Sequence record: ON528729
Length of the DNA stretch: 64,000 nt
Source of the DNA: Shigella phage ESh19
Reading direction: 5' to 3' (one strand)
Below, piece after piece: positions 18,767 through 25,683 of this stretch (position 1 is its first letter; every line of letters begins with the position of its first letter). The notes beneath the pieces were generated by a model. That model made no database searches and was not told the origin of the DNA. It was given only the letters and a program-made list of their open reading frames with translations. Position numbers and translations under genes: made by a program.

Positions 18767-18800
18767 CAAAAAAAGGCTCCTTTTTACGGGAGCCTTAGCA
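18767..18800. terminator. terminator hairpin between convergent genes (AAGGCTCC/GGAGCCTT, A/T runs both sides)
   Basis: 8-bp inverted repeat 18773-18796 flanked by A-run upstream and T-rich loop/downstream. Confidence 0.5.
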
Positions 18801-19175
18801 TTATTTCTTTTTAGCATTCTGTGTATTTTGTTCGGTAATTGCTTGTAAAGCTGATACAGACTGTGCTAAGTTGTTCACACTATCTGAGAATTTATCAAGG
18901 GTTTTGGTCAACTTAGCGTTCTCCCCTTTAACGTTCTCTAACTGCACTTTCTGGTTTTCCATCCCTAACTGAAGGAGTTTCATATCAGACTGTAAATCAC
19001 GAATAGCTGAATAGTTACCTTTTGAGTAACCATCCAACTGTTGTAACTTTGTGTTGATAGAAACTTCTTGCTTTCCATCAGAGACCTGCATCGTAGTGTA
19101 CATACCAATTACACTGAAAATACCTACAACGATTGCACCAATATTATTCTTAAAAGCATCTTCAAGCCACTTCAT
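18801..19175 (-). CDS. membrane-anchored coiled-coil protein (i-spanin-like?)
   Basis: N-terminal TM (IGAIVVGIFSVIGMY) followed by coiled-coil; adjacent to holin-like gene. Confidence 0.35.
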   Translation of the reverse strand: MKWLEDAFKNNIGAIVVGIFSVIGMYTTMQVSDGKQEVSINTKLQQLDGYSKGNYSAIRDLQSDMKLLQLGMENQKVQLENVKGENAKLTKTLDKFSDSVNNLAQSVSALQAITEQNTQNAKKK

Positions 19176-19369
19176 TATTTCTCACCTTTAAAAGCCTTTT
19201 CCAAGGTATCTACAAATTCATCATCAATAGGTGTATCTGTTTTACTCGCAAGGTATCTTGCAAGCTTAAAGAACACTTTTTCAATCATGTATTCACTGAG
19301 AAGAGAAAAAAGAAGCTTCCAAAAGAATGCCCCAAGGTTTTTCATGAAGATTGCTAGAATGGTTGGCAT
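19175..19369 (-). CDS. small membrane protein (holin-like?, 64 aa)
   Basis: Single hydrophobic segment plus charged C-terminus; RBS AAGGTGA. Confidence 0.35.
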   Translation of the reverse strand: MPTILAIFMKNLGAFFWKLLFSLLSEYMIEKVFFKLARYLASKTDTPIDDEFVDTLEKAFKGEK

Positions 19370-19418
19370 TTAATCACCTTACTTCTTGAGCCAAGATGGT
19401 GAGAATACCTACTAAGAA

Positions 19419-19447
19419 ATATTAACACCATCTTGACAGTTAGTCAA
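19419..19447 (-). promoter_or_regulatory. sigma70-like promoter TTGACT-N17-TAATAT
   Basis: Minus-strand reading upstream of 19369 gene. Confidence 0.5.
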
Positions 19448-19455
19448 CAAGGTAA

Positions 19456-21831
19456 TTATGCAGTTCTTACCCAAGCCATTAATTTAATGTAAGTGTTAAG
19501 AACACTGAATGCTGCACCAGAACCAGTTGCACCAGTGTTACCACTGAATGTGTGGTTGTGAGCACCAATACCTACACCGTGACCGTGAGCACCTACCCAA
19601 CTTGTTCTCCCTGTCCAAGTTCTGGAAGCATAGAAGTTAACTGGCGCACCATAAGTGAAGTGAGAACCTGTCCAGCTATGCCCACCTTGGCTACCACTCA
19701 TTGCAAAAGCACCGTCTGCAACGTAGAACGAGTTATTATCACTTCTAAACCATCCAAAGTTACCAGAGATTTCCATATTACCTCTGTCATGGTCGTGAGC
19801 ACCTTGAGCGTCTGTGTACTTAGTGCCATAATCAAATGTACTTGTTGTTCCAGAGAAGCTATGAGTGTGCGCAGGAATATGACCAACACTTAGAGCCACC
19901 GTATCAGAACCACCAAGACCTTTCACATCGGAACCATTTGCAGAACCAATTCTAATAGTTCTGTTTGCACCCTCTGTCAAGTAAGTCCAAGTAGTGCCTG
20001 GGAAAGCTGTATTTGGGTTGACATTAGAAGCAAAGAACGTCACAATACCAACTGGATACACTTTTTTAAGGTCTGTAGCATCAGTTACAGCGGAAGCAAT
20101 ACGTTGGTCTACTTCAGCCTTGGTGTAAGCACCAAGTTCAGAGGGTGTAGGTTTGTCTTGGTCTGTGTAGATTTTAGCCCAAACCTCTTCAAAACCAAAT
20201 CCATCCCTTGCTGTTCTATAATAGATTCCAGTATTCTTGTAGTTAAATTTAAACTGTGCAGTCGGTGTAGATGCACCAACTCCAAGGTACATTTGGTAAA
20301 CTAAGTGAGTAGACCCACCAGTTGAATTTGTAACACTGTACAAACCTGTTTTTGAATTCCAAGCAATACCTGTTGCATCACCAACTTCTGTTCCCGTTCC
20401 AGATACACCAGACAACATATATCTTGAGTTTGAAGCAGATTGTGTGTAGTATCTTGAGTCAAAGTTTGACCAATCGCTTGGTCTTACTTGTCCAACAATA
20501 TTCACATGTGTATTCACATCTAAATCAGTACCAATATTGATTGCCTTTCCTGTTACATCATTGTTAAGTACCACATTGTTTTGACCAGCATCACCAATAC
20601 CCAACCACCATCTCCTGCTCCCATTAGCATTATGTGCAGACATGTAGATTCCAGAGTCTTGTACTGTTGCCTGTAGTCTAAAAGGATTGTCGCTGTCAGT
20701 ATTGATAGTCTGTGGACTAGTAAAAACGTTTGCAGCATTAGTTCTTGCAAGAACATTCGTTAAAGAGCTTGGAACGTATCTTGTATCAAAGTTTGCAAAG
20801 TCACTTGGTTTTACCTGACCAGTTACATTGATAGCTTTATTAAATGAAAACTCTGTAGCAATTTTCAAGTTAACATTTGTCATCTGATTTGCTAAAACAA
20901 TCTCAGACTGCGTACCATCTGGTTGACCTACATACCAAGTTCCTGTCCCAGCACTGTTATAACCACGCATAAATAATGCAGCATTCTCTGTAACCGCTCT
21001 TAAGTTAAGTGCATTACTATCTGCAATAACATAAGTCTTACCATTGAAGTTGTTAACCCCAACAAAGTTATTACTTGCATTAAGTTTTGCAAATCTCTGG
21101 TCAGCAGCAGTCTGTGTAAAGAATCTTGCATCAAGGTTATTCCAGTTATTAGGCTGAACCTGTCCATTGATTTCAAAATTCTTATCAACACTAACAGAGT
21201 TTGTGCCAAGAGTCAACGTAGCACCCTTACTATTAACTAATGTAACATCAGTACCAGAAGTCAAGTTACCAACTGTGAATCTCAAAGCATTATTTGAATC
21301 CCTTGCTTCAATATATGCTCCACCATCTGGTAAGATACTTTTAAGTGTTAAACCAACACCGTTGATATTAATGATTTGTCTTGCCAAGAAGGTATTTTCA
21401 GTTTCCTTCATAGCGTATCTTGCATCATTTTCAGTATTAGTTCTCATACCTAATTCATTAGGAGATGGTTTATTAAGTGTGTGATAAACTGTTGCAGACC
21501 TTGTGGCATCATTTACAGTTAATCTTAAAGCACTTGCATTAATTCTAAAGGTCTTGGCAGTGTCACCGAGAATAACCTCAGAAGAACCTGTTGGGTCTAA
21601 TAAGTCTTTTCCACCGTATCTTAATTTGACGATGCCAAGATTCCCTGTCATATCCCCACCAGTTAGTTGTAAGAATCTTTCTAGTTTGAAAGAGGCAAGG
21701 AAATTTGCATAGGTCATTTTACGGTCTTCATCACCTAGCATATCAGACCTTTTGATAATTCTTAGGTGAAGTAAATCTTCTGAGCGAACTGTATCAATAC
21801 TGTTTAGCTCACTTAGCTTATATTCAGCCAT
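19456..21831 (-). CDS. tail fiber protein (791 aa) with C-terminal His-x-His repeats
   Basis: Size, position distal to baseplate genes, HTHSFSG ... GAHDHD ... GAHGHGVGIGAHNHTFSG motifs; RBS AAGAGGA. Confidence 0.65.
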   Translation of the reverse strand: MAEYKLSELNSIDTVRSEDLLHLRIIKRSDMLGDEDRKMTYANFLASFKLERFLQLTGGDMTGNLGIVKLRYGGKDLLDPTGSSEVILGDTAKTFRINASALRLTVNDATRSATVYHTLNKPSPNELGMRTNTENDARYAMKETENTFLARQIININGVGLTLKSILPDGGAYIEARDSNNALRFTVGNLTSGTDVTLVNSKGATLTLGTNSVSVDKNFEINGQVQPNNWNNLDARFFTQTAADQRFAKLNASNNFVGVNNFNGKTYVIADSNALNLRAVTENAALFMRGYNSAGTGTWYVGQPDGTQSEIVLANQMTNVNLKIATEFSFNKAINVTGQVKPSDFANFDTRYVPSSLTNVLARTNAANVFTSPQTINTDSDNPFRLQATVQDSGIYMSAHNANGSRRWWLGIGDAGQNNVVLNNDVTGKAINIGTDLDVNTHVNIVGQVRPSDWSNFDSRYYTQSASNSRYMLSGVSGTGTEVGDATGIAWNSKTGLYSVTNSTGGSTHLVYQMYLGVGASTPTAQFKFNYKNTGIYYRTARDGFGFEEVWAKIYTDQDKPTPSELGAYTKAEVDQRIASAVTDATDLKKVYPVGIVTFFASNVNPNTAFPGTTWTYLTEGANRTIRIGSANGSDVKGLGGSDTVALSVGHIPAHTHSFSGTTSTFDYGTKYTDAQGAHDHDRGNMEISGNFGWFRSDNNSFYVADGAFAMSGSQGGHSWTGSHFTYGAPVNFYASRTWTGRTSWVGAHGHGVGIGAHNHTFSGNTGATGSGAAFSVLNTYIKLMAWVRTA

Positions 21832-21876
21832 TTATAAATCCTCTTTCTAGGGGCTGTGTAGCCCCTTATAAAATAA

Positions 21877-23052
21877 TTACGCAGTTCTCTTCCAAACATA
21901 TACAACATAAGAAGGTTGCTCAATATTAAATGCTTGTCCAGCACCAAATGCACCAGTTGTACCTGAGTGAGTGTGCTCAGAAGATTGAACTGTCACAGTA
22001 CCTGAGTGTCCATGTGAACCAATTGCAACGCTGTGTCCATGTGCTCCAATATACACACTGTGAGAGTGGTTACCACCAACTGAAGAGTTAACGTTGAAGG
22101 TATGTGTGTGAACCCCATCAAAGTCTGTATATGACGCATTACCAACACCTGCATCAGCCGTTGCCGTAATAGCGTTTACACCACCCCTGTCGGAACCCCT
22201 CAATGGAATCCTGTGGCTGTGACTACCAGCACTGCTTACAGAACCATTAACGTTATGAGCGTGGCTTCCAGAGTCGTTTGTGGCCTTAGAACCATAATCA
22301 AAACTTGATGTGCTCTTAGTCCCATAGTCAAAGCTAGAAATTACTACTGTTGCATTATGGGAGTGTCCACCACCAGTTAGTAATACAGAGTGTGTGTGAC
22401 TTGGAATGTTATTTTGTGTAAGTGTTACAGTAGCAGAACCAAATACTGATTCTACAGGTCTTGTATCTGTGTCATAACCAACAAGAGACCTTCCTTTAGA
22501 AACTAACTCCCAAGTACCACCACAAAGTAAATATGTAGATGGGTTTGCAGGGTTAACTGACAAATGAATAGTACCAATTGGATAGCTATTCTGGATAGCT
22601 CTGTATAAAGCATTCACAGCTTTTGCAGTAGCGTACTTATCAGCATCTTCAGAGTAAGAGTTTGAGTATGTCCAGTTTTGAATATTAGACAAACCTACTT
22701 GAATCTTGTTAGTGTTGTGAGGGTTATTCTTGTCATTAATGTGATTTTGAATAAGGGCATTAACTTCATCACTTGATAGAATATTAAGGTTCTGTCTAGC
22801 CTCTTCAACACTAACCACGTCTGACAAGTTATTAGCAGCCACTAATTGGAGTGCGTTAACAACATTACCAAGTTCTACGTGAACCTTTGTAACACCGTGT
22901 GGGTTATTTCTTAAAGATGCGTGTGGAGCAAGTAATTGCTCAAGTGTGCATCGTTTATCCTCAATACCTTGCTTCAGGTGAAAGATATCACTTAAATCAA
23001 TCGGTAATGAGGCTTGAGGCAATGCACTAATTTGAATTTCACCGACTGCCAT
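21877..23052 (-). CDS. tail fiber / receptor-binding protein (391 aa), His-x-His rich
   Basis: HTHSV, GGGHSHN, GSHAHN, GSHSHR, GGNHSHS, GAHGHS, GSHGHS repeats; C-terminus similar to that of 19456..21831. Confidence 0.6.
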   Translation of the reverse strand: MAVGEIQISALPQASLPIDLSDIFHLKQGIEDKRCTLEQLLAPHASLRNNPHGVTKVHVELGNVVNALQLVAANNLSDVVSVEEARQNLNILSSDEVNALIQNHINDKNNPHNTNKIQVGLSNIQNWTYSNSYSEDADKYATAKAVNALYRAIQNSYPIGTIHLSVNPANPSTYLLCGGTWELVSKGRSLVGYDTDTRPVESVFGSATVTLTQNNIPSHTHSVLLTGGGHSHNATVVISSFDYGTKSTSSFDYGSKATNDSGSHAHNVNGSVSSAGSHSHRIPLRGSDRGGVNAITATADAGVGNASYTDFDGVHTHTFNVNSSVGGNHSHSVYIGAHGHSVAIGSHGHSGTVTVQSSEHTHSGTTGAFGAGQAFNIEQPSYVVYVWKRTA

Positions 23053-23054
23053 TA

Positions 23055-23354
23055 TTAGCTCCCTTTATATTCGTATGTGTAAAGGTTAGTCGTGCTGGTG
23101 TGTGCAGTTCCTGTTACTGTGTCAATTAATTCCCAACCATTGGAAACTAAATCAGGTTGCTCCGTAGCAAATGAACGAACCTCTCCAACCGTACCATTTA
23201 CTTTGTTAAGCAAATAGTTGATAATATAGTTAAACCACTGACGACCCATAGGTTCACCCCTTAATAGGCCAGTGGCTTGAATTTCTGGAGGTGGTAAAAC
23301 TTTAAGCTGGTTACCATCAGCATCAACTGTATCTGTAGACCATGAAAGAGACAT
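23055..23354 (-). CDS. hypothetical tail-associated protein (99 aa)
   Basis: ORF track; position. Confidence 0.45.
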
Positions 23355-24211
23355 TATGAACTTCCTTCTTGTTGAGATTTATCTTTTCTGCCTTTGACGA
23401 TTTGGGCGACTTCTGCCATAATCCCATAATCACCACCTGCTACTGTTTCTTTACCAGCAATGAAATAGTCGTTGCTATTGTTTGTTTTGCTGACTTTTAA
23501 ATAATCTTTACTGGTACTTCCACCAGTTTTATCCACTCTTACATAACCATCTCTTACACCTGCATCTGCAAAACTACCTAATTTGTTTGCTTCTAGAGAG
23601 CCACCTGTGTTATTCGTAATAAGACCCTTGTTAGTGTTTGTTACAAACCAGTTATTGTTCTCATCAGTGATTGCCAGAGATGAATCAGCAACCTCTACAG
23701 GAGTCCAAGCAGTACCATTTAAGGTAACATCTCTAAGGATAACTGCCGAACCAATAGTTGTTGCAGCAATCTTAGAAAGTGTGTATGCTGTATCTAACAC
23801 GTTATTACGAGTGTTTACACGGACAACGATTCCACCAGTCATTGGTGTAATGTGCTCAAAAATCTGACTGAATGATGCGTTGTAAAGGGTCATAACAGCC
23901 CTTTGTAAGAAGTTTGGTGTGGTGTCAGAACGTCTTAAGAAAATTTGAATGTAGAGGATAGCTCTGTAAGTGTCATCATCAGCACCAATAGGTCTAGGGA
24001 CTTTAATCAAAGCCCCAATGTTATCAAGTTGTGTGCCAACACCTACACGAATATTTCTTTCAGTATATAACTGGTTACTGATATCCTCTAATAATTGTAA
24101 CTCATCTGTGATAGATTTCAATAGACTTGTGTAAATAAACTTATCTTTGAATTGAGTTACAGTTCTTTCGTCCAATGTTTTCTCATAAAAGTTTTCAATC
24201 TTTTTAAACAT
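23354..24211 (-). CDS. baseplate/tail protein (285 aa)
   Basis: Start refined to ATG 24211 (RBS GGAGTAACA) directly after upstream stop. Confidence 0.45.
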
Positions 24212-24213
24212 TG

Positions 24214-25683
24214 TTACTCCTTGGTAATTGTATACTGTGAGCTTTCCCAAACAGTGTACTGGTCACCATCAATAGTGATTCTTGAAGTTGTGTACTGCCC
24301 CTCAGCAGGTGGAATTGCTTGGTTATTTGAAAGTGCAACCTTAATCTCGTTAATCTCGATACCTTGAATCACATCATAGATATGTCCATAGATTCTGTTA
24401 GGGATTACATCGTTACCAACTTTCAACGTTCTACCATAGGCATTAATACCTTGAACAATTCTGTCATGAATATCCTGTTCAGGGATGTTAAGAGTTTCTT
24501 CATCGTAAAGAGAGTAAGTAACCTTGACAAAAACATATTTAGGCATTGGTCTGCTAAAGTAAACATCATGAGGGAGAGAACCTAAGTCATATGCAGTCCC
24601 AAAGATTGAACCATATGGGCGAATACCAGCAGGTTTCGTGTCCCAGATTGCCTGTGCAATATTATCATTCTGACCACCAACTACAACAATCTTAAAAGAC
24701 TTCGGAGGAAGACCATCAGCGTTTGTTGTCTCAGTATCATTTTCTACACCAGAAGCATCAGACACACCTTGCACTCTCTTGACAGCAGCTACAATAGCAT
24801 CCAGAGTACCTACACCAGTAACAGCCAGAGATTCTAAGTAACGCTGTCTCAGTTCTGTGTCAGTTTCCTCATCACGACCTGTTGTCAAGTCATATCTGTT
24901 GAAAACACTATCAAGACCATCTACAGTTGTTTCAATCTCAATCAAGGTTCCTGCAAGAGTCTGGATAGCTCCAGTTTCATCTGCTACAACGTCACTGATT
25001 GAAGTAATCTTTGTAAATGTTAAGAATGTCGTTGCAGTAACAACCATAGGGTTAGTTCTGGCAATGATATCTCCAGTGTCTTTATAGATTCTTAGAACTG
25101 AGCCATCATTAATAACTTCAGCCTTTGCAATAATACCACCATTGATAGCATCTGCAAGTTTCTGTAGCAATGTTGTAATGGTATCAGAGCTAGTCGGATG
25201 ATATGAATACTCAATGTTGTCAATGATAATAACATAGTTTGCATCTGTTCGTAAAGAGTTAACTTCTAAGTTTGCCTCTACACAGTAAGATGGAGTCAGC
25301 GTGAAAGTTGACACAGGGTAAAAGATATTACCTGCTGTGCTTCTTAACCTTGTAGTGGCTGGTACAGGAGCACCAGAATTACCAGTGAACTCAGCTTGAC
25401 CTCTTGTAGCCTGTGCCACATATCTGTATACAGCGTTCAAAGCTGTTACATCATCTAAACTGAATCCTTCAGCTTTGTCAATAGTACCACCGTCATAGAT
25501 TTCTGACAAGATTTCATGAACGTCTGCAAGACCTCGGCAAACAGAAGCTAAGAATAACCCAAGTTCGCTATCTTCAGAAACATCAAGGTTTGGTGAGATA
25601 TCTCTATACAGACTTGCTTTAACATCATCCAAGATTTCTTGATATCTTTTTGTTTGTAAACCTGTAGTTGTTAATCCAGCCAT
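24214..25683 (-). CDS. baseplate protein (J-like, 489 aa)
   Basis: Size and position within baseplate block; inference from synteny. Confidence 0.45.

What the first reader, a model, noticed from the sequence alone, without database searches (positions are those of the whole stretch)
19456..23052. Two tail fibers with dense His-x-His repeats and related C-termini
Both fiber proteins carry multiple H-x-H motifs (HTHSFSG, GAHDHD, GAHGHGVGIGAHNHTFSG; GGGHSHN, GSHAHN, GSHSHR, GAHGHSVAIGSHGHSG) and end in similar sequences. His-x-His arrays coordinate metal ions in T4 gp37/gp12 fiber tips, so these are likely metal-stabilised receptor-binding tips, possibly two alternative host specificities.
Basis: partly seen in the sequence, partly recalled or inferred. 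Interest (0 to 1): 0.4.

Follow-up and report, generated by a model that had tools for sequence, protein, structure and literature searches.

The report
Two known phage tail fibers
These are the short and long tail fibers of a Felix-O1-like (Mooglevirus) phage, each ending in a T4 gp37-type histidine-rich needle tip; the short one differs at 1 of 391 residues from a published Shigella phage Sf14 protein, so the reading is right but ordinary.

Summary
Two adjacent minus-strand genes (21877-23052, 391 aa; 19456-21831, 791 aa) carry 9 and 4 His-x-His motifs, all in their C-terminal parts, far more than shuffles give. Their C-terminal regions are homologous (30% identity, E 1e-17). The window is a Mooglevirus genome segment. 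The short fiber is 390/391 identical to Shigella phage Sf14 gp52 and the long one 88.8% identical to gp53. The short fiber's tip matches the solved T4 gp37 tip (PDB 2XGF, E 4e-25) and has the same HxH spacing (14-37-14-9-9) plus two extra motifs. The long fiber matches 2XGF more weakly (6e-5 alone, 8e-14 as a family profile). It keeps four motifs around a 63-residue head. The motif histidines are 72-100% conserved, and the stretch equivalent to the T4 head domain is hypervariable in the short fiber. The shared C-termini are the closing strand of a collar (Gp10_C) domain that the needle interrupts. Published cryo-EM of Sf14 and Bas63 already describes two co-displayed fibers with collar, HxH needle and head. 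"Alternative specificities" therefore holds only as two receptors bound at once. Trimer and metal geometry could not be tested: AlphaFold2 monomer models were poor at the tips. Already known, low interest.

The parts
21877..23052 (-). Short tail fiber gene (391 aa), orthologue of Sf14 gp52 / Bas63 gp26 (STF)
   Evidence: ORF. It is 390/391 identical to Sf14 FDI99_gp105 and matches phrog_2097 tail fiber at 4e-131.
22597..23052 (-). STF residues 1-152: N-terminal baseplate-binding region and helical shaft, with two NNPHxxxKxxVxLxN repeats
   Evidence: This is the most conserved part in 36 homologues. It carries the EDKRCT motif that the Sf14 paper names as the baseplate-binding region. Helices were predicted at moderate pLDDT.
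22399..22596 (-). STF residues 153-218: N-terminal half of the collar (Gp10_C-like) domain
   Evidence: The Pfam Gp10_C match (5e-17, 63.5 bits against a cut-off of 27) spans protein residues 155-390 on only 136 profile positions, so the domain is interrupted. The segment also matches the T4 gp10 C-terminal domain 2FKK at 5e-7.
21958..22398 (-). STF residues 219-365: needle with nine HxH motifs (4 ascending, 5 descending) enclosing the head
   Evidence: Residues 146-363 align with 2XGF at E 4e-25. Spacing is 11,34,14,37,14,9,9,13 against 32,14,37,14,9,9 in T4. The motif histidines are 72-100% conserved.
22117..22212 (-). STF residues 281-312: head domain equivalent, the putative receptor-contacting tip
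   Evidence: It lies between the 4th and 5th HxH, with the same 37-residue HxH-to-HxH span as T4 (929 to 966). It is hypervariable: only 13-22% of homologues share the query residue over 281-310, against 60-85% in the N-terminal region and collar.
21877..21957 (-). STF residues 366-391 plus stop: C-terminal strand(s) that return to and close the collar domain
   Evidence: This is the end of the Gp10_C match. It aligns with the C-termini of the long fiber and of T4 gp37.
19456..21831 (-). Long tail fiber gene (791 aa), orthologue of Sf14 gp53 / Bas63 gp27 (LTF)
   Evidence: ORF. It is 88.8% identical to Sf14 FDI99_gp104 and gives a full-length match to phrog_4277 tail fiber.
21397..21831 (-). 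LTF residues 1-145: N-terminal baseplate-binding region
   Evidence: This is the most conserved part of the protein: entropy 0.38, 100% identity in close relatives and 75% in distant ones. It carries the EDRKMT motif.
20422..21396 (-). LTF residues 146-470: three beta-rich shaft repeats (gp37_trimer modules), each ending in a G-Q-V-x-P-(S/N)-(D/N)-(F/W)-x-N-(L/F)-D-x-R-(F/Y) motif
   Evidence: Pfam gp37_trimer 2.6e-43 in 3 stretches. The AF2 monomer reaches pLDDT 70-87 here. Foldseek hits the Mu fiber 8JU3/5YVQ and the T4 gp34 rod 4UXG/5NXH. The family profile hits T7 gp17 4A0T at 3e-5.
20467..20718 (-). LTF residues 372-455: allele-specific mosaic patch within the third shaft repeat
   Evidence: Identity to the Sf13-Sf19 group is 24-46% here and 95-100% in the flanks.
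20074..20409 (-). LTF residues 475-586: gp37_C domain, homologous to the phage Mu tail fiber S domain
   Evidence: Pfam gp37_C 6e-18. PDB 8JU3 matches at 7.8e-22 for the single sequence and 4.8e-29 for the profile.
19870..20070 (-). LTF residues 588-654: N-terminal half of the collar (Gp10_C-like) domain
   Evidence: Pfam Gp10_C scores 29.4 bits against a cut-off of 27 and spans residues 589-789 on 136 profile positions. The segment aligns with the STF collar.
19546..19869 (-). LTF residues 655-762: short needle with four HxH motifs (655, 679 ascending; 749, 758 descending) around the head
   Evidence: HxH positions are. The motif histidines are 98-100% conserved in 121 homologues. 2XGF matches at 6.4e-5 for the single sequence and 8.4e-14 for the profile.
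19597..19785 (-). LTF residues 683-745: enlarged, aromatic-rich head region; the T4 positions H929/H931 and H966/H968 align with F/W and A/R
   Evidence: The replacements come from alignments. Entropy is 1.26 here against 0.4-0.7 in collar and needle. No structural model is reliable: pLDDT is below 50.
19456..19545 (-). LTF residues 763-791 plus stop: C-terminal strand(s) closing the collar
   Evidence: These residues are nearly invariant in the family.
23055..23354 (-). 99-aa protein between the wedge genes and the fibers; by gene order the counterpart of Bas63 gp25, the long-fiber platform
   Evidence: The assignment rests on synteny only: wedge 489 aa, wedge 285 aa, this gene, STF, LTF, the same order and wedge lengths as Bas63 gp23-gp27. 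It matches phrog_4141 of unknown function and has no Pfam hit. The Sf14 paper suggests 'T4 gp11 homolog?' and did not detect it by MS.

Best explanation
The region encodes the two tail fibers of a Mooglevirus (Felix-O1-like myovirus). Each is most likely a homotrimer. The N-terminus docks on the baseplate wedge or platform. The C-terminus forms a T4 gp37-type receptor-binding tip. In that tip the chain leaves a collar (Gp10_C-like) domain and runs out along a thin needle. It forms a small head at the far end, runs back along the same needle, and finishes by closing the collar. This is why the two proteins, and T4 gp37, end alike. Along the needle axis each HxH motif from the three chains would supply six imidazoles that bind one metal ion octahedrally (Fe2+ in T4). 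That gives up to nine sites in the short fiber and four in the long one, which would rigidify a needle that lacks a normal hydrophobic core. The head loops make the receptor contact, probably with the LPS core. Both fibers sit on the same virion, folded up along the sheath. The 630-Angstrom fiber probably makes first contact and the 430-Angstrom fiber a second one before the baseplate triggers. Shown here: the motifs, their conservation, homology to the solved gp37 tip, the interrupted collar domain, and orthology to Sf14 gp52/gp53. Taken from papers: co-display, fiber lengths and tip architecture. Inferred: trimeric metal sites, metal identity, receptor identity and order of binding.
For: Motif statistics are. 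STF against PDB 2XGF gives E 4e-25 over residues 146-363 with HxH motifs in register. The inter-motif spacing 14-37-14-9-9 is identical to T4 gp37. LTF against 2XGF gives 6.4e-5 alone and 8.4e-14 as a family profile. Gp10_C Pfam matches are above the cut-off in both proteins and stretch over 200-236 residues for a 139-position profile, so the domain is split by an insertion. HxH histidines are 72-100% conserved in 36 STF homologues and 98-100% in 121 LTF homologues. Other histidines in the LTF tip, H651, H718 and H724, are only 11-40% conserved. The STF segment equivalent to the T4 head is the least conserved part of the protein. A sister-phage LTF (REP10) carries a 97-residue segment 91% identical to the T4 gp37 needle and head at the same position, so the two kinds of tip occupy interchangeable slots. 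STF is 390/391 identical to Sf14 gp52 and LTF 88.8% identical to gp53. In Sf14 both proteins were detected in virions by MS and docked as 430 and 630 Angstrom fibers (PMC11821841). In Bas63 both fibers are described with a collar, an HxH needle and a head (PMC12609058). Seven Fe ions on the seven HxH motifs of T4 gp37 are restated in PMC12609058 and PMC11705849.
Against: No trimer model or metal site was obtained here. AlphaFold2 monomer models had mean pLDDT 62.7 and 53.2, with both tips below 50, and Foldseek did not retrieve 2XGF. The LTF tip is a weak single-sequence match to 2XGF and has only four motifs. Two T4 metal layers appear to be replaced by F/W and A/R, so part of its 'needle' may not bind metal at all. 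[quoted passage not shown] No receptor or host-range genetics for these proteins was found. No homologue of the T4 gp38 chaperone is in the window, so folding differs from T4 in at least that respect.
Confidence: 0.85

Rival explanations
1. The two fibers are alternative, mutually exclusive host-range determinants, with one or the other used per particle or per host, as with the invertible S/S' fibers of phage Mu.
For: There are two tandem fiber genes with related tips but different head regions. The Sf14 paper draws the Mu comparison.
Against: Both genes are on the same strand and complete, with no long inverted repeats flanking either; the best pair is 36 nt at 72%. Both proteins are found in Sf14 virions by MS, and cryo-EM density for both was seen on the tail of Sf14 and of Bas63, where they attach to different baseplate sites. 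Their N-terminal regions differ in sequence, consistent with separate docking sites.
Confidence: 0.07
2. The HxH arrays are a repeat or compositional feature of Gly/Ser/His-rich beta-structure that holds together by hydrogen bonding or stacking, without bound metal.
For: The region is low-complexity: S, G, H and T make up more than half of the residues. It contains 9-residue sequence repeats visible as 27-nt DNA repeats (D5). In the LTF, positions that are His in T4 are F/W and A/R, so the fold tolerates non-metal layers. No metal was tested here.
Against: Histidines in the motifs are conserved as pairs at 72-100% while neighbouring residues and non-motif histidines vary. The direct homologue with identical spacing, T4 gp37, binds one Fe per motif in the crystal structure.
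Confidence: 0.1
3. The fiber-bound iron is itself the ligand ('Ferrojan Horse' idea): the metal-loaded tip mimics a siderophore-iron complex and docks on a TonB-dependent receptor. On this reading the metal is more than structural.
For: The hypothesis exists in the literature for HxH-bearing fibers (PMC11705849). The fibers here have many putative sites.
Against: In the T4 template the ions are buried on the needle axis and not exposed (established structure, restated). Ounavirinae are reported to depend on the LPS core rather than on protein receptors (PMC8594841, PMC11821841). The variable, presumably receptor-contacting part is the metal-free head.
Confidence: 0.03

Closest known systems
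Shigella phage Sf14 gp52 (FDI99_gp105) and gp53 (FDI99_gp104), Mooglevirus; cryo-EM study PMC11821841
   Same: The genes are orthologous: 390/391 and 88.8% amino-acid identity, with the same gene order from the wedge genes to the 'holin'. They are the same two fibers of 430 and 630 Angstrom, retracted on the sheath.
   Different: The long fiber here carries a different allele of shaft residues 372-455, and there are scattered changes in the head. That paper discusses HxH only for the tail needle gp47, not for the fibers, and it places the gp37-tip-like domain of gp52 mid-fiber.
Escherichia phage Bas63 (JohannRWettstein) STF gp26 and LTF gp27, Felixounavirus; PMC12609058
   Same: Same gene order and wedge protein lengths. 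[quoted passage not shown] This is exactly the architecture inferred here.
   Different: Identity is only about 52% (Sf14 against Bas63, as given by the paper). Bas63 is reported with 7 (STF) and 6 plus HHxH (LTF) motifs. Here a plain count gives 9 and 4, so this LTF belongs to the commoner 4-motif, large-head tip type.
T4 gp37 receptor-binding tip, residues 785-1026 (PDB 2XGF)
   Same: The STF shows significant sequence homology across collar, needle and head. All seven T4 HxH motifs are matched with identical spacing, the 37-residue span across the head is the same, and the C-terminal strand is the same.
   Different: The STF has two extra motifs next to the collar (9 against 7). The LTF has only four and a head region more than twice as long. 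The tip sits on a 391- or 791-aa single-protein fiber rather than at the end of a four-protein, kinked long fiber. No gp38 chaperone gene is in the window.
T4 gp10 C-terminal domain / phage tail collar fold (Pfam PF21939 Gp10_C; PDB 2FKK)
   Same: The collar parts of both proteins match this family above the curated cut-off, and the STF matches 2FKK at 5e-7.
   Different: In gp10 the domain is compact. Here it is interrupted by a needle-plus-head insertion of roughly 110-150 residues, as in gp37.
Phage Mu tail fiber protein S (PDB 8JU3)
   Same: LTF residues 475-581 are homologous to S residues 326-429 (7.8e-22). The shaft also resembles it by Foldseek.
   Different: The Mu fiber ends in a different tip, needs a separate chaperone and is switched by DNA inversion. 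None of these applies here.

Membership tests
T4 gp37-type receptor-binding tip (collar-needle-head, PDB 2XGF) | Significant sequence similarity to the solved tip across the collar and both needle strands | tested here: met
   STF E 4e-25 over residues 146-363. LTF 6.4e-5 as a single sequence and 8.4e-14 as a family profile.
T4 gp37-type receptor-binding tip (collar-needle-head, PDB 2XGF) | Array of HxH motifs on the ascending and descending strands with the characteristic spacing | tested here: met
   T4 spacing is 32,14,37,14,9,9 and STF spacing is 11,34,14,37,14,9,9,13. The LTF keeps only 24,70,9, four motifs, so it meets the feature in reduced form. The histidines are conserved.
T4 gp37-type receptor-binding tip (collar-needle-head, PDB 2XGF) | Chain doubles back so that the C-terminus rejoins the collar domain | tested here: met
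   Met at sequence level only. The Gp10_C profile (139 positions) matches from before the needle to the last residue in both proteins. The C-terminal strands align with that of gp37.
T4 gp37-type receptor-binding tip (collar-needle-head, PDB 2XGF) | Interdigitated homotrimer with axial, octahedrally coordinated metal ions | not testable with these tools
   Only monomer AlphaFold2 was available. Tips had pLDDT below 50, and Foldseek gave no significant match for the STF and only shaft matches (Mu fiber, T4 gp34), not 2XGF, for the LTF. Metal content needs experiment.
T4 gp37-type receptor-binding tip (collar-needle-head, PDB 2XGF) | Variable head domain at the turn of the chain | tested here: met
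   STF residues 281-310 are the least conserved stretch, at 13-22%. The LTF head at 683-745 has entropy 1.26 against 0.4-0.7 in collar and needle.
T4 gp37-type receptor-binding tip (collar-needle-head, PDB 2XGF) | Dependence on a gp38-type assembly chaperone encoded next to the fiber gene | tested here: not met
   tblastn of T4 gp38 against the window gave E > 2. The genes downstream are small membrane proteins. The Sf14 paper reports no fiber chaperone homologues. This is an accessory feature of T4, not of the fold.
Ounavirinae two-fiber set (Sf14 gp52/gp53, Bas63 gp26/gp27) | Orthology and conserved position directly downstream of the baseplate wedge genes | tested here: met
   99.7% and 88.8% identity to the Sf14 proteins, and 95-98% nucleotide identity to many Moogleviruses. 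Gene order matches.
Ounavirinae two-fiber set (Sf14 gp52/gp53, Bas63 gp26/gp27) | Both fibers present together on the virion | not testable with these tools
   Taken from the papers: MS and cryo-EM of Sf14, cryo-EM of Bas63.
Pfam PF21939 Gp10_C (tail collar-like domain) | Score above the curated gathering threshold (27 bits) | tested here: met
   63.5 bits for the STF and 29.4 bits for the LTF.
   No gp12 chain was among the PDB hits at E up to 1 for either protein. Any relation is only through the general collar fold.

The most novel reading that the evidence does not exclude
The long fiber's tip may be a structurally undescribed variant of the gp37 tip. The two head-proximal metal layers of T4 (H929/H931 and H966/H968) would be replaced by F-x-W and A-x-R, leaving a four-metal stub that carries an enlarged 63-residue aromatic-rich head with its own fold and receptor-binding mode. 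The short fiber would be the opposite extreme, with nine metal layers, more than the seven of T4 or of Bas63's short fiber as its authors count them.
Probability: 0.35. Interest if true: 0.25.

Novelty: already known. Interest (0 to 1): 0.1.

Why it matters
It matters little as a discovery. The proteins are published (Sf14 gp52/gp53), and the HxH-needle tip of both Ounavirinae fibers was described for Bas63 in 2025. The practical value is correct annotation: short and long tail fibers with gp37-type tips, with the head segments (STF 281-312, LTF 683-745) as the places to look for host-range determinants. Three small additions come from this work. The short fiber reproduces the T4 motif spacing exactly, plus two extra layers. 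Most long-fiber homologues have a reduced four-motif tip. Some relatives carry a near-verbatim T4 gp37 tip cassette, which documents tip swapping between phage subfamilies that could be used for host-range engineering.

Tried and rejected
(1) AlphaFold2 with family alignments for both whole proteins. Monomer models were poor (pLDDT 62.7 and 53.2; needle and head below 50). They can neither support nor refute interdigitated metal sites.

(2) Foldseek of those models against the PDB. There was nothing significant for the STF; the best plausible hit was gp10 C-terminal domain 2FKK at probability 0.72, and long beta-hairpin toxins appeared as shape artefacts. The LTF model matched only through its shaft (Mu fiber, T4 gp34); engineered OspA beta-sheet proteins were also among the hits with E below 0.001 and were treated as shape matches. 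2XGF was not retrieved by structure.

(3) Mu-type invertible switch. Rejected: there are no convincing inverted repeats around either gene.

(4) gp12 relationship. Rejected: no sequence hit.

(5) Search for a gp38-like chaperone. Nothing was found for gp38 in the window. About 24 kb of the genome lies outside the window.

(6) Literature search for receptor or host-range genetics of Ounavirinae fibers. Nothing specific was found beyond LPS-core dependence.

(7) The original T4 tip paper (PMC2996694) and the T4 fiber review (PMC5899708) are not held. The T4 facts are cited through papers that restate them, and the T4 domain boundaries are from memory.

(8) I did not retrieve the Bas63 genome. 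Orthology to Bas63 rests on gene order, protein lengths and the paper's own Sf14-Bas63 comparison.


Full report
**What is there.** The finding's coordinates enclose exactly two complete ORFs on the minus strand: 21877-23052 (391 aa) and, 45 nt downstream, 19456-21831 (791 aa).

- Upstream on the same strand lie a 99-aa ORF, a 285/298-aa baseplate protein, a 489-aa Baseplate_J wedge protein and a gp25-like protein.
- Downstream lie two small membrane proteins.
- Beyond those, a bidirectional terminator faces convergent thymidylate synthase and DHFR genes.
- The 3.6-kb stretch is 98% identical in DNA to Citrobacter phage BSwM KMM2 and 95-96% identical to Shigella phages Sf13-Sf19.
- Sf14 is classified in Ounavirinae, genus Mooglevirus, and its annotation shows the same gene order.

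**Check of the observation.**

- The long protein has 4 HxH motifs (655, 679, 749, 758).
- The short one has 9 (219, 230, 264, 278, 315, 329, 338, 347, 360). All lie in the C-terminal 140-175 residues.
- Composition-preserving shuffles give means of 0.30 and 1.52 motifs for the whole proteins, and none of 20,000 shuffles reached the observed counts.
- Shuffling only the His-rich C-terminal parts gives 0.54 (P about 0.001) and 1.43 (P < 5e-5).
- The C-terminal regions of the two proteins align at 30% identity, E 1e-17, up to the last residues ...AWVRTA and ...VWKRTA.

**What the C-terminal parts are.**

*Homology to solved structures.*
- The short fiber hits the sequence of the T4 gp37 receptor-binding tip (PDB 2XGF) at E 4e-25 over residues 146-363. 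It hits the T4 gp10 C-terminal domain at 5e-7.
- The long fiber hits 2XGF at 6.4e-5 by itself and at 8.4e-14 as a 53-sequence family profile.

*Interrupted collar domain.* Pfam places Gp10_C above threshold in both proteins. The 139-position profile is stretched over 236 and 201 residues, from just before the first HxH to the last residue. The collar-like domain is therefore interrupted by the His-rich insert. The shared C-termini are its closing strand. T4 gp37 ends in the aligned ...FNYIVRLA.

*Motif spacing.* Using the T4 genome record I located the seven tip HxH motifs of T4 gp37 at 883, 915, 929, 966, 980, 989 and 998.
- T4 spacing is 32-14-37-14-9-9.
- Short-fiber spacing is 11-34-14-37-14-9-9-13.
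- The short fiber thus reproduces the T4 pattern, including the 37-residue span that holds the T4 head domain. It adds one motif on the way out and one on the way back, next to the collar.
- The long fiber keeps only four motifs (spacing 24-70-9).
- Alignments place F692/W694 and A736/R738 of the long fiber where T4 and the six-motif relatives have H929/H931 and H966/H968. Two metal layers therefore seem to have been lost around a 63-residue aromatic-rich head. This last point rests on alignment of repetitive sequence and is tentative.

**Conservation.**

- In 36 short-fiber homologues (37-88% identity) the motif histidines are 72-100% conserved, and most sequences have nine motifs.
- Residues 281-310, between the fourth and fifth motifs, are the least conserved stretch: 13-22% of sequences share the query residue, against 60-85% in the N-terminal region and collar. 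With the offset given by the motif alignment, this stretch corresponds to the T4 head domain. The T4 head boundaries (about 933-959) are from memory.
- In 121 long-fiber homologues the eight motif histidines are 98-100% conserved, while H651, H718 and H724 nearby are 11-40% conserved.
- 102 of the 121 have four motifs, as here, and 16 have six.
- One six-motif protein, from Escherichia phage REP10, contains 97 residues that are 91% identical to T4 gp37 898-994. The tip is therefore an exchangeable cassette, and the relation to gp37 is direct.
- By identity the short fiber's tip is closer to T4 gp37 (39%) than to its neighbour's tip (30%). The two tips are thus not a recent duplication.

**The rest of the proteins.**

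- The long fiber has a highly conserved N-terminal 145 residues.
- It then has three gp37_trimer repeats. These are the only part that AlphaFold2 modelled with confidence. Foldseek relates them to the Mu fiber and the T4 gp34 rod, and the family profile relates them to T7 gp17.
- Next comes a gp37_C domain homologous to Mu fiber protein S (8JU3, 7.8e-22).
- Both fibers share an N-terminal G-x-E-D-(K/R)(K/R)-(C/M)-T motif that the Sf14 authors assign to baseplate binding.

**What is already published.**

- The short fiber is 390/391 identical to Sf14 gp52, and the long one is 88.8% identical to gp53.
- The Sf14 cryo-EM paper (PMC11821841) detected both proteins in virions by mass spectrometry. 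It docked AlphaFold trimers into densities of 430 and 630 Angstrom lying along the sheath. It noted a T4 gp37-like distal tip in gp53, and a C24-like and a gp10-C-like domain in gp52. It found no fiber chaperone homologues and proposed the LPS outer core as receptor for at least one fiber.
- The Bas63 cryo-EM paper (PMC12609058) describes the orthologous STF (gp26) and LTF (gp27). [quoted passage not shown] The paper compares both to 2XGF, reports attachment to different baseplate components, and reports variability in the tips and in the LTF beta-helix repeats.

**Mechanism and its status.** I take each fiber to be a trimer whose needle is stabilised by one axial metal ion per HxH layer. That gives up to nine layers in the short fiber and four in the long one. 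The variable head contacts the receptor, and both fibers act on the same particle.

- Shown here: the motifs, their conservation, homology to 2XGF, the interrupted collar and the orthology.
- Taken from papers: co-display, fiber lengths and tip architecture in relatives.
- Inferred: trimeric metal coordination, which metal, which receptors and the order of engagement.

Only monomer AlphaFold2 was available. Both tips came out below pLDDT 50, and Foldseek did not retrieve 2XGF.

**Rival readings.**

- An either/or switch of specificity is unlikely. There are no inverted repeats, and both proteins are in virions.
- A metal-free His ladder is possible but disfavoured by pairwise His conservation and by the T4 template.
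- Iron as a bait for siderophore receptors is unlikely, given buried sites and the LPS dependence of the subfamily.

**Verdict.** This is a real feature, correctly read in the main, and already known. Interest is low.

Noticed in passing
window 20467-20718 (minus strand; long fiber residues 372-455): A patch in the third shaft repeat is only 24-46% identical to the Sf13-Sf19/Henu11 alleles, while the flanks are 95-100% identical. KMM2, ESh21 and ESh22 share this window's allele. It is a recombination patch in the shaft rather than in the tip, and it accounts for the '94% covered, 2 pieces' rows of the DNA search.
   Followed up: partly
protein P0217 (Escherichia phage REP10 long fiber), residues 661-757: A long-fiber orthologue that is 58% identical overall carries 97 residues 91% identical to T4 gp37 898-994 (needle plus head). 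This is a tip cassette shared between Tevenvirinae and Ounavirinae. 16 of 121 homologues have this six-HxH tip type.
   Followed up: partly
window 18801-19175 (minus) and 19175-19369 (minus): Two small membrane proteins lie directly after the long fiber gene. The 124-aa one (N-terminal transmembrane segment plus coiled coil) is annotated 'putative holin' in Sf14, yet the Sf14 paper lists it as detected in virions by mass spectrometry. That is odd for a holin. The 64-aa one matches phrog_402, of unknown function.
   Followed up: no
window 23055-23354 (minus): This 99-aa ORF between the wedge genes and the fibers has no Pfam hit. The Sf14 paper calls it a possible T4 gp11 homologue not seen by MS. 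By gene order it corresponds to Bas63 gp25, described as a T4 gp9-like long-fiber platform. The two papers disagree.
   Followed up: no
window 19392-19435 and 18773-18796: A hairpin with 16-nt arms sits in the 86-nt gap after the long fiber stop codon. A GC-rich bidirectional terminator-like hairpin sits between the convergent thymidylate synthase gene and the 'holin' gene.
   Followed up: no
window 23354-24250 (minus): The mechanical ORF call starts at a TTG and gives 298 aa. The PHROG match and the Sf14 annotation begin at the Met 13 codons downstream (285 aa, the length reported for Bas63 wedge 1), so the real start is probably ATG at 24211.
   Followed up: partly
window 22681-22908 (minus; short fiber residues 49-64 and 109-124): There are two copies of an NNPHxxxKxxVxLxN motif in the short fiber shaft, with histidines H52 (invariant) and H112 (83% conserved). 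It is a repeat seen in many phage fiber proteins and is unrelated to the HxH needle.
   Followed up: no
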